IMG/VR virus record: IMGVR_UViG_2737471846_000027
Span: 1-12,108 of that record
DNA length: 12,108 nt
Direction: 5' to 3' (one strand)
Source: a virus
Lineage: Duplodnaviria > Heunggongvirae > Uroviricota > Caudoviricetes
The position numbers and the translations under genes were made by a program. The notes below the pieces were generated by a model. The model made no database searches. It worked only from the letters and a program-made list of their open reading frames with translations, and was not told the origin of the DNA. Below are positions 1,462 through 2,412 of the stretch, one piece after another (position 1 is the first letter of the stretch; each line of letters starts with the position of its first letter).

Positions 1462-1975
1462 ATATGTCCTTTTATCACTACATCATGTCAAGCCATTGAT
1501 TCAATTAAACAATTTGCATTGAAAAAGTGCCAAAAATCGCAAATTGACTACACCATTAACTACACCGTTCGGTGCACTGTATGAAACAACGTGGAACAAA
1601 TAGACACAAGAAATATACAGGCGGGTAATCTTTCCAGGGGGAAGCGCACCAATTCATGAAGGGCGTTAATGTCGATATGGGGATCCCCATAACGGGGCTA
1701 CCGGATTTTTTTCCGGTTAACCTTTAATCAGGCTGGTGGGTTTTACATACCCTTGATCACCGTAATGATGATCCAGATGTGCACCTTTTCCACCAATGGC
1801 GGAAAAGCTCCAACCGTAACGATGATCGCTATGGTTGCCTTGATGGTCTGCGTGGTCATTATGACCATTCAGCCAGTGACCTTAATCAGAATTTTTCGCT
1901 AAAAAATGACGTTGGCCGGTCATCCGGAAAGCACAAAATCACGTCGATTTTTAATGAACGGTTAAACCGTCTTTT

Positions 1976-2011
1976 TGTCACGGTGTGTCACTGGTTGTCA
2001 CTCTCCGTCAC
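1976..2011 (+). repeat. Four direct repeats of (T)GTCAC phased at exactly 10 bp; candidate integrase arm-type sites
   Basis: GTCAC occurs at 1977, 1987, 1997 and 2007, one helical turn apart. The motif resembles the lambda Int arm-type consensus CAGTCACTAT. It lies in non-coding DNA between phoQ and the first island gene. Confidence 0.5.
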
Positions 2012-2100
2012 GATTGAGGTGGTGGTCATTCTGCCCGACCGCGCATTTTTGCGCTATCGGGAATATCAAACAGTTACCTCGCCGACTTCCTCAAATTGAG

Positions 2101-2328
2101 GTTTCCGAAAATATCAGCGGGTTAGCGATTAAGCTGACGAGTAATTAAACTGCGAAAATTTCGTAGCTTGTGACTATCTGAAAGATCGTCGGTTGTTCCG
2201 GCCTCAGCCGTTGGCTGTTTCCGAGAATATCAACGGGTTAGCAAAGAGCAATTTTGCACTTTGCTTTAAGTTCAACCAGTTACCGCCAGCTTCCCCCAAT
2301 GGGGGATTGTGGAATAATCAACGGTTTA
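2101..2328 (+). repeat. Degenerate direct repeats carrying IHF-like sites (TTCCGARAATATCARCGGGTTAGC at 2103–2126 and 2220–2243; partial third copy 2311–2328)
   Basis: Two 24-bp near-identical direct repeats about 117 bp apart plus a partial third. Each contains a match to the IHF consensus WATCAANNNNTTR (ATCAGCGGGTTAG, ATCAACGGGTTAG, AATCAACGGTTTA). A second repeat family (AGCAATTTTGCRCTTTGCTTTAA..AGTTACCGCC) occurs at 2246–2290 and 2378–2422. Confidence 0.5.
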
Positions 2329-2412
2329 GGCCTTAATCATCTGCGTAAACATAAGTAATCATAATGATCATTCAGCCAGCGCAATTTTGCGCTTTGCTTT
2401 AATCTCAGTGAG

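What the first reader, a model, noticed from the sequence alone, without database searches (positions are those of the whole stretch)
1462..2412. About 950 bp of non-coding, repeat-rich DNA between phoQ and the island genes: phased GTCAC array and IHF-like sites suggest an att arm
Four GTCAC repeats at exact 10-bp phasing (1977–2011) resemble integrase arm-type sites (lambda consensus CAGTCACTAT). They are followed by three matches to the IHF consensus inside 24-bp direct repeats (2103–2126, 2220–2243, 2311–2328). This is what an int-distal attachment-site arm looks like, which would place the island-chromosome junction between the phoQ stop and about 1975. The exact core cannot be found without the other end.
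Basis: inference. Interest (0 to 1): 0.5.

Follow-up and report, generated by a model that had tools for sequence, protein, structure and literature searches.

The report
Non-coding tail of a phage satellite
The repeat-rich DNA after phoQ is the far end of a small phage-parasitic island: only its first ~150-240 bases are the real attachment arm, and the GTCAC and IHF-like repeats belong to a shuffled, optional tail that plays no part in integration.

Summary
Four GTCAC repeats sit at exact 10-bp phasing (1977-2011), and there are four, not three, co-oriented IHF-consensus matches (2064, 2112, 2228, 2316). Both are far above chance.

The att-arm reading holds only for the extreme left of the interval. 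Comparison with the K-12 empty site and a close relative's int-side junction puts the crossover at a 10-bp block, AAATATGTCC (1459-1468), overlapping the phoQ stop codon. The likely arm-type sites are a tandem ATTRACTACACC pair (1543-1566), repeated next to int.

From 1699 onward the DNA is independent of the att site:
- The same 50-nt GTCAC block occurs in islands whose integrases are only 22-24% identical, at tRNA-Ile and tRNA-Pro sites.
- It is absent from islands with the same integrase and site.
- The IHF-like motifs are stacked relics of the sequence formed by the neighbouring 93-aa gene's stop codon plus 10 nt.

The island is a lambda-cos-type PICI with its own Nu1-like TerS, capsid genes, primase and ori. 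The GTCAC cores are more conserved than their spacers, so the array is probably a protein-binding site with an unknown partner. It resembles origin iterons of some lambdoid phage O genes. Overall this is ordinary, with one unexplained module.

The parts
1..1461 (+). phoQ, the host gene that abuts the island
   Evidence: Annotated as phoQ in all matching E. coli genomes.
1459..1468 (.). att core identity block AAATATGTCC; overlaps the phoQ TAA stop codon and marks the island-chromosome junction
   Evidence: attL in the window reads GAATAAATATGTCC|TTTTATC. attR in L002 and L001 reads GATAAAATATGTCC|ATACTTCAC. The K-12 empty site reads GAATAAATATGCCCATACTTCAC.
1489..1501 (-). IHF-consensus match between core and arm repeats; candidate genuine att-arm IHF site
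   Evidence: AATCAATGGCTTG. The region is retained with substitutions in the attL of L002 and L001; L002 keeps the consensus.
1543..1566 (+). Tandem ATTGACTACACC/ATTAACTACACC; probable integrase arm-type sites
   Evidence: Only two matches in the window against 0.05 expected. The same tandem pair, in the same orientation, lies next to int in L002 (15915-15938) and L001 (31436-31459). The integrase has an Arm-DNA-bind_3 domain.
1567..1698 (.). Remainder of the integrase-linked arm module; 1567-1616 is still similar to the int-side arm
   Evidence: Window 1542-1616 is 77% identical to L002 15914-15988. Similarity to islands with other integrases begins only at 1699-1701.
1700..1872 (.). att-independent hairpin block: CCGGATTTTTTTCCGG, CCACCAGCCTGATTAA, a CCCC/GGGG hairpin, an 11-12-bp stem with a variable loop, and the palindrome GGTCATAATGACC; it includes the spurious 41-aa ORF
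   Evidence: Present in islands at five or more att sites: phoQ, tRNA-Ile, tRNA-Pro, next to clpS, and tqsA. Indels break the reading frame; stems are conserved and loops vary.
1958..1976 (+). Short hairpin plus T-run (ACGGTTAAACCGT CTTTTTG) to the left of the array
   Evidence: Terminator-like hit. The motif ACCGTCTTTT(T) precedes the array in every allele.
1977..2011 (+). Four (T)GTCAC units at 10-bp phasing; an optional, conserved, probable protein-binding array
   Evidence: There are 4-5 units in relatives and the array is present in 23 of 55 related loci. Cores are invariant while spacers vary. The block occurs in 229 of 5,426 complete E. coli genomes.
2041..2126 (.). Relic units of the 93-aa gene's 3' junction: hairpin GCGCATTTTTGCGC and IHF-like motifs at 2064 and 2112
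   Evidence: The reverse complement of window 2088-2120 matches another island's sequence directly after its stop codon.
2217..2379 (.). Further relic units (IHF-like motifs at 2228 and 2316; a copy of the gene end at 2245-2287) and a degenerate second copy of the hairpin block (2291-2379)
   Evidence: Repeat families D1, D2, D5, D7, D9 and D10. This stretch is absent from L001 and differs in L002, L005 and L333.
2378..2393 (.). Palindromic hairpin AGCGCAATTTTGCGCT just past the 93-aa gene's stop codon
2413..2694 (-). 93-aa gene (phrog_1561, function unknown); last gene of the island and a constant neighbour of the tail
   Evidence: The family is narrow, with 36 representatives at 50% clustering. 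The model is three helices at pLDDT 68.
2759..2770 (+). cosN, the lambda-type 12-nt cohesive end, followed by R-like repeats at 2809-2928
   Evidence: Identical to lambda bases 1-12; all but a few of the first ~45 nt match. Inverted and direct repeats I3, I4 and D14.
2950..3504 (-). Nu1-like small terminase (island context)
   Evidence: PF07471, E = 2e-23. It is 36% identical to lambda Nu1.
6371..6609 (.). Probable island ori: TCTACCC/GGGTAGA iterons in direct and inverted sets, 3' of the primase gene
   Evidence: This position and layout match the described E. coli PICI origins (PMC6092414).
10879..12108 (-). Tyrosine integrase with an arm-binding domain (the other end of the island)
   Evidence: Pfam hits PF13356 and PF00589.

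Best explanation
The interval is the int-distal end of a roughly 10.8-kb lambda-cos-type phage-inducible chromosomal island (PICI) inserted between phoQ and roxA. It has two parts. (1) 1459 to about 1616-1698 is the real attL arm. Strand exchange occurs in AAATATGTCC (1459-1468), which regenerates the phoQ stop codon. The integrase's arm-binding domain most likely binds the tandem ATTRACTACACC pair at 1543-1566 and its twin next to int, and the IHF-consensus site at 1489-1501 would bend the DNA between core and arm. (2) 1699-2412 is a recombination-shuffled non-coding tail shared by PICIs with unrelated integrases, replication proteins and packaging modules. It is built from optional modules: conserved hairpin/palindrome blocks that probably end or insulate the island's minus-strand late operon, which converges on phoQ; stacked relics of the 93-aa gene's 3' junction, which happen to spell the IHF consensus; and the (T)GTCAC x4 array. 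The array is most likely a helically phased binding site for a trans-acting protein that is neither the island's integrase nor its Rep. Shown: the junction, the arm repeats, att-independence, the optional nature of the modules, and the relic origin of the IHF motifs. Inferred: which proteins bind, and the terminator/insulator role.
For: The K-12 empty site and the attL/attR comparison define the core. The arm repeat is significant and is duplicated next to int, and the integrase has an arm-binding domain. Window 1699-2694 is 98% identical in a tRNA-Ile island (L004), and the GTCAC block is identical in five islands spanning 3 att sites, 2 Rep types and 2 packaging types. Those integrases are 22-24% identical to the window's. 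The array is absent from 32 of 55 related loci and from L333, which shares the same int and att. The IHF motif equals the stop codon plus 10 nt in about 30 of 56 islands. Array cores have 0 substitutions in 20 nt against at least 6 in 15 nt of spacer, plus one clean 10-bp unit deletion. PICI identity is supported by the cos site, Nu1-like TerS, lambda E/D-like capsid genes, D5-type primase with ori iterons, and int (PMC6092414).
Against: No binding, excision or transcription data exist. The right-hand junction was read from relatives (L002 int 95% identical; L001), not from this strain, because the window ends at int. The hairpin blocks are not canonical intrinsic terminators and show no convincing compensatory changes. 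The core-versus-spacer test rests on only 8 alleles (p about 0.006). The array's partner is unidentified.
Confidence: 0.8

Rival explanations
1. One reading: the GTCAC array is the integrase arm-type site cluster, and the IHF-like repeats are the bending sites of the int-distal att arm.
For: GTCAC is the core of the lambda Int arm-site consensus (established knowledge). The 10-bp phasing and consensus IHF matches are real. The integrase has an arm-binding domain.
Against: The identical block occurs with integrases 22-24% identical at other att sites. It is absent with the same integrase and att site. It lies 509-860 bp from the core. There is no GTCAC in the int-side arm. A different repeat is shared by both arms. 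The IHF motifs are gene-end relics.
Confidence: 0.03
2. The GTCAC array mimics the origin iterons of a lambdoid helper phage's O-type (replisome-organiser) initiator. The satellite would either recruit that initiator as a helper-dependent second origin or titrate it as a form of interference.
For: Phased (T/G)GTCAC(G) arrays of 4-6 units lie inside O-type initiator genes of E. coli and E. albertii prophages and of coliphages vB_EcoS-813R8 and Tritos, at the position of lambda's ori. The 17-nt stretch TGTCACGGCGTGTCACT is shared with island alleles L292 and L295. A ~66% AT stretch flanks the array (read). No island gene tracks the array, which fits a trans factor from outside. Cores are constrained.
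Against: There is no flanking homology to O genes. The spacer match is only about p = 0.02-0.05 given that the cores were fixed by the search. Phage arrays use 10-12-bp spacing. The phages closest to the island's TerS or cos are not the ones with these O genes. Iteron function in those phages is itself inferred by analogy with lambda. I could not compute co-occurrence.
Confidence: 0.15
3. The array is an operator or assembly site for an island-encoded DNA-binding protein, for example the adjacent 93-aa protein or the AlpA-type regulator.
For: When present, the array lies 6-400 nt downstream of the 93-aa gene and directly abuts it in the minimal islands. Phased direct repeats are typical of winged-helix or excisionase-type filament binders (established knowledge).
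Against: Islands with a 99% identical 93-aa protein lack the array (L246, L248). No island gene co-varies with it. No promoter is predicted nearby. The 93-aa protein has no recognisable DNA-binding fold.
Confidence: 0.2
4. The array and the other repeats are functionless by-products of slippage and recombination in a junk tail.
For: The array is optional, with variable copy number and a mosaic distribution. The IHF-like units are demonstrably relics.
Against: The units have different spacers, so this is not recent slippage. Cores are invariant while spacers vary. The 50-nt block is identical across otherwise diverged islands.
Confidence: 0.15
5. The tail encodes a small hydrophobic protein (41 aa, 1743..1868 minus strand; or 45-49 aa on the plus strand) or a structured small RNA.
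For: ORFs exist on both strands. The block is conserved across many islands. Two stems are conserved while their loops vary.
Against: Indels of 7+5+2 nt and loss of the start codon in diverged copies. No Pfam or PHROG hit. No Rfam hit. No convincing compensatory pairs.
Confidence: 0.07

Closest known systems
Gram-negative cos-type PICIs (EcCICFT073 family; Fillol-Salom et al. 2018/2019, PMC6092414, PMC6739421)
   Same: An int at one end, a primase with an iteron ori immediately 3' of it, a lambda-like cosQ/cosN with a non-lambda cosB, two cos copies, a lambda E-like capsid gene, no tail or lysis genes, a size of about 11 kb, and a dedicated chromosomal att site.
   Different: It carries its own Nu1-like TerS (36% identical to lambda Nu1, at most 44% to any phage TerS) rather than relying on an Rpp partner. 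Its two cos copies are inverted around terS. The non-coding tail and GTCAC array are not described in the papers I read.
Capsid-forming PICIs (EcCIEDL933 type; bioRxiv 10.1101/2022.09.08.507074)
   Same: L001, a cf-PICI-like island at the same phoQ site, shares the att arm, the hairpin block, the GTCAC array and the 93-aa gene with the window.
   Different: The window island has no portal, protease, HNH or TerL genes. It uses a lambda-type cos.
Lambda attP arm organisation (arm-type Int sites plus IHF sites)
   Same: A core flanked by arm-type direct repeats 75 bp and ~125 bp away on the two sides, with an IHF-consensus site between core and arm on the int-distal side.
   Different: The arm motif is ATTRACTACACC, not (C/A)AGTCACTAT. 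The GTCAC array is not part of it.
Origin iterons inside lambdoid O / replisome-organiser genes
   Same: There are 4-6 direct (T/G)GTCAC units at about one helical turn, next to an AT-rich stretch.
   Different: The island array is intergenic, has no cognate initiator gene in the island, is optional, and shares no flanking homology. The island's own ori uses TCTACCC iterons.

Membership tests
Arm-type site cluster of this island's integrase (att arm) | Lies within the att arms, close to the core (roughly 50-250 bp) | tested here: not met
   The array is 509-550 bp and the IHF-like units 596-860 bp from the core at 1459-1468. The ATTRACTACACC pair is 75 bp away, so that motif does meet this feature.
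Arm-type site cluster of this island's integrase (att arm) | The same motif is present in the int-proximal arm | tested here: not met
   There is no GTCAC in the int-side arm of L002 or L001. ATTRACTACACC x2 is present in both arms.
Arm-type site cluster of this island's integrase (att arm) | Co-varies with the integrase and att site | tested here: not met
   The block is identical with integrases 22-24% identical. It is absent from L333, L246 and L248, which have the same int and att.
Arm-type site cluster of this island's integrase (att arm) | Bound by the integrase N-terminal domain | not testable with these tools
   Needs EMSA or footprinting.
Gram-negative cos-type PICI | Integrase at one end and site-specific insertion with a direct repeat | tested here: met
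   Int at 10879-12108. A 10-bp repeat AAATATGTCC at attL and attR, and an empty site in K-12.
Gram-negative cos-type PICI | Primase/Rep followed by an iteron ori | tested here: met
   D5_N/DUF5906 primase at 6617-8371. TCTACCC iterons at 6371-6609. The layout matches PMC6092414.
Gram-negative cos-type PICI | Helper-type cos site, and no tail or lysis genes | tested here: met
   cosN is identical to lambda's. Gene content per the annotation of close relatives and Pfam.
Gram-negative cos-type PICI | Induction and packaging by a helper phage | not testable with these tools
   Requires an experiment.
IHF binding site | Match to WATCARNNNNTTR | tested here: met
   Five matches within 1462-2412. The four at 2064-2328 are copies of one gene-end junction.
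IHF binding site | IHF binding and bending with a role in a nucleoprotein complex | not testable with these tools
   Their variable copy number (0-4) among close relatives argues against a required role.
Replication-origin iterons (lambdoid O type) | Phased direct repeats with a conserved core | tested here: met
Replication-origin iterons (lambdoid O type) | Cognate initiator encoded in cis, or array embedded in the initiator gene | tested here: not met
   There is no O-like gene in the window. The array is intergenic.
Small protein gene / type I toxin | Reading frame and start codon conserved in homologous copies | tested here: not met
   Frame-breaking indels and a lost start codon.

The most novel reading that the evidence does not exclude
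The optional (T)GTCAC array is a mimic of the origin iterons of a family of lambdoid phage O-type initiators. If so, these satellites carry a portable, helper-specific module that either borrows the helper's replication initiator or soaks it up to interfere with helper replication.
Probability: 0.12. Interest if true: 0.7.

Novelty: new member of a known kind. Interest (0 to 1): 0.3.

Why it matters
It fixes the exact integration site and the probable arm sites of a common E. coli satellite family at phoQ-roxA. It also corrects a plausible but wrong motif-based inference, showing that phased GTCAC plus IHF consensus does not by itself mean an att arm. The ends of these islands turn out to be built from interchangeable non-coding modules. 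The one open item is the GTCAC array, which is under sequence constraint, is portable between unrelated islands, and has no known binder. If it interacts with a helper-phage protein, that would be a new kind of satellite-helper interface.

Tried and rejected
- **Rfam:** an E-value-mode scan of 1300-3100 gave only spurious sub-threshold eukaryotic hits.
- **Small-ORF reading:** both ORFs lack Pfam and PHROG hits, and the frame is not conserved.
- **Structured-RNA test of the hairpin block:** on both strands the stems are conserved, but there is no real covariation.
- **Protein-array co-variation:** abandoned, because the 93-aa family is too narrow (36 representatives at 50% clustering, mostly fragments), and the search for homologous proteins returned only relatives of at least 86% identity.
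- **93-aa protein fold:** there is no solved homolog. The AF2 model has pLDDT 68 with three helices, too weak for a fold search.
- **Degenerate 4x GTCAC scans:** They still yielded the O-gene iteron lead and extra island copies.
- **DNA search of the tail against phages:** no match.
- **Array as the island's own ori:** rejected, because different iterons sit next to the primase and the array is shared across Rep types.
- **Packaging link to the TGTCAC-iteron phages:** none was found.
- **Host-factor motifs considered from memory (not tested):** matS needs inverted GTGAC/GTCAC half-sites, the Pho box has an 11-bp period, and lambda arm sites need AGTCACTAT. None fits.

Full report
**Observation**

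The sequence features are as described. GTCAC occurs four times at exact 10-bp spacing (1977, 1987, 1997, 2007). No shuffle of the window produced even a three-unit array.

The IHF consensus WATCARNNNNTTR matches at 2112, 2228 and 2316 as reported, and also at 2064, all on the + strand. That is 8 matches in the window against 0.84 expected. The direct repeats are 26 nt (2101-2126 and 2217-2242, 92% identical), with a weak third copy.

No convincing gene lies in 1462-2412, and no Rfam family matches.

**Context**

The window starts with phoQ and ends with a tyrosine integrase that has an arm-binding domain. Between them are:
- a D5-type primase;
- SSB;
- lambda E-like capsid and D-like decoration genes;
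- a Nu1-like small terminase;
- a cos site whose 12-nt cohesive end is identical to lambda's and whose first ~45 nt nearly all match. Its R-site repeats read GATCC where lambda has TTTCC.

TCTACCC/GGGTAGA iterons lie immediately 3' of the primase. Fillol-Salom et al. place E. coli PICI origins in exactly this position (PMC6092414). Related islands are annotated the same way and sit between phoQ and roxA. This is therefore a cos-type PICI of about 10.8 kb.

**Where the junction is**

In K-12 the phoQ-roxA spacer is 75 bp and contains none of the segment. I compared three sequences:
- the window's attL, GAATAAATATGTCC|TTTTATC;
- attR of L002 (integrase 95% identical) and L001, GATAAAATATGTCC|ATACTTCAC;
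- attB, GAATAAATATGCCCATACTTCAC.

This gives a 10-bp identity block, AAATATGTCC (1459-1468), which overlaps the phoQ stop codon.

A tandem pair, ATTGACTACACC and ATTAACTACACC (1543-1566; 0.05 expected), recurs in the same orientation next to int in L002 and L001. Similarity there extends over about 75 nt. An IHF-consensus match lies between the core and these repeats (1489-1501). This is a conventional att arm, but it occupies only the first 150-240 bases of the interval.

**Why the cited motifs are not the arm**

Similarity to islands with other integrases starts abruptly at 1699-1701. Window 1699-2694 is 98% identical in an island at a tRNA-Ile site, and a large part is shared with one at a tRNA-Pro site. 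Their integrases are only 22% and 24% identical to this one.

The 50-nt block containing the array is identical in five islands. Together they cover three att sites, two replication-protein types (primase and RepA helicase) and two packaging systems (lambda-type cos, and HNH/P27-TerS/TerL).

Conversely, 32 of 55 related loci fetched through the neighbouring 93-aa gene lack the array. These include islands with the same arm repeats and a 99% identical 93-aa protein. L333 has the same att site and 98% identical int-side DNA, yet has no GTCAC pair anywhere.

The hairpin block 1700-1872 also occurs in islands next to clpS and in tqsA.

**The IHF-like units**

In about 30 of 56 related islands the consensus is spelled by the 93-aa gene's own stop codon and the next ten bases: GGTAA CTGGTTGATATT, whose reverse complement is TATCAACCAGTTA.

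One island's post-stop sequence, TAACTGGTTGATATTTTCGGAAACCTCAATTTG, is essentially the window's unit at 2088-2120. Other window units also copy the gene's last codons and the hairpin GCGCAAAATTGCGC (families D2 and D5).

The units are therefore stacked paralogous relics of one gene-end junction. Their number ranges from 0 (L001) to 4 among close relatives. They should be counted as one event, and they are not a required part of any complex.

**The GTCAC array**

In minimal islands the array has five units and begins 6-16 nt after the 93-aa gene's stop codon. The window's 2013-2410 is filler inserted between the two.

I compared eight alleles from loci fetched without reference to the array:
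- cores U1-U4 show no substitution in 20 positions;
- spacers 1-3 show at least six substitutions in 15 positions;
- one allele has lost exactly one 10-bp unit.

Under equal rates this gives p of about 0.006, which suggests the cores are read by a protein on one face of the helix.

The array is not the island's ori, because different iterons sit by the primase. It does not track any island gene. It occurs in 229 of 5,426 complete E. coli genomes, compared with 1,151 that carry some piece of the tail.

**A lead on the array**

Similar arrays of (T/G)GTCAC(G) at about 10-bp spacing lie inside O-type (replisome-organiser) initiator genes. I found them in E. albertii and E. coli prophages and in coliphages such as vB_EcoS-813R8 and Tritos, at the position where lambda keeps its ori. 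A 17-nt stretch is shared with some island alleles.

This is a resemblance, not a demonstrated relationship:
- there is no flanking homology;
- the cores were fixed by my own search pattern;
- the phages nearest to the island's TerS and cos are not the ones carrying these O genes.

**Other modules**

The 41-aa ORF (1743..1868, minus strand) is not conserved as coding. What is conserved are palindromes and stems with variable loops, but without real compensatory changes on either strand.

The late operon on the minus strand converges on phoQ. A terminator or insulator role for these hairpins, and for the plus-strand hairpin plus T-run at 1958-1976, is therefore the simplest reading. That is an inference; only sub-canonical terminator matches were found.

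In one relative (L326), real cargo genes (a PerC-family regulator and a hypothetical) lie in this zone. That fits the accessory-gene position described for PICIs (PMC6092414).

**Verdict**

An att arm does lie in the interval, but at its left edge and with different sites. The rest is an att-independent, mosaic PICI tail.

The island is a new member of a known kind. The only unexplained item is the optional, sequence-constrained GTCAC array.

Noticed in passing
window 2759-2770 (+) and 3626-3637 (-): Two exact lambda-type cosN sequences in inverted orientation bracket the terS gene. They share about 70 nt around cosQ/cosN and then diverge. The bracketed segment has the opposite orientation in L002 (terS on the + strand) compared with the window and L004. 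This suggests inversion by recombination between the cos copies. EcCICFT073 is also reported to have two cos sites (PMC6739421).
   Followed up: partly
window 2950-3504 (-): The island encodes its own Nu1-like small terminase. It is at most 44% identical to any phage TerS in the collection (N15 is closest) and 36% identical to lambda Nu1. The R-site repeats in its cosB read GATCC instead of lambda's TTTCC, which would fit a private TerS/cosB pair.
   Followed up: partly
window 6371-6609: A dense set of TCTACCC/GGGTAGA repeats in direct and inverted orientation lies just 3' of the primase gene. This is the probable island replication origin.
   Followed up: partly
L149 and L163 (IMG/VR); L328 and L329 (E. 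coli): Related islands inserted in tqsA carry nearly the same arm repeats (ATGACTACACC/GTGACTACACC and the following ~60 nt) as the phoQ-site islands, but with a different core. This suggests integrases that share arm specificity and have diverged in core specificity.
   Followed up: no
L014 3032-4090 (E. albertii); L331 1507-2577 (phage vB_EcoS-813R8): O-type replication initiator genes contain 4-6 phased (T/G)GTCAC(G) repeats within the coding sequence. These are presumably the phage ori, as in lambda. The L014 protein is a chimera of this N-terminal domain with a DnaT-like, Rac YdaU-type C-terminus.
   Followed up: partly
window 9324-10268 (-): A 314-aa ORF with no Pfam hit. Only its last ~55 residues match phage transcriptional-repressor PHROGs. 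It is possibly the island's regulator fused to an unknown N-terminal domain.
   Followed up: no
L326 1897-2611: In an island next to clpS, a PerC-family regulator gene and a hypothetical gene occupy the zone between the hairpin block and the 93-aa gene. This shows that the tail is a cargo insertion zone.
   Followed up: no
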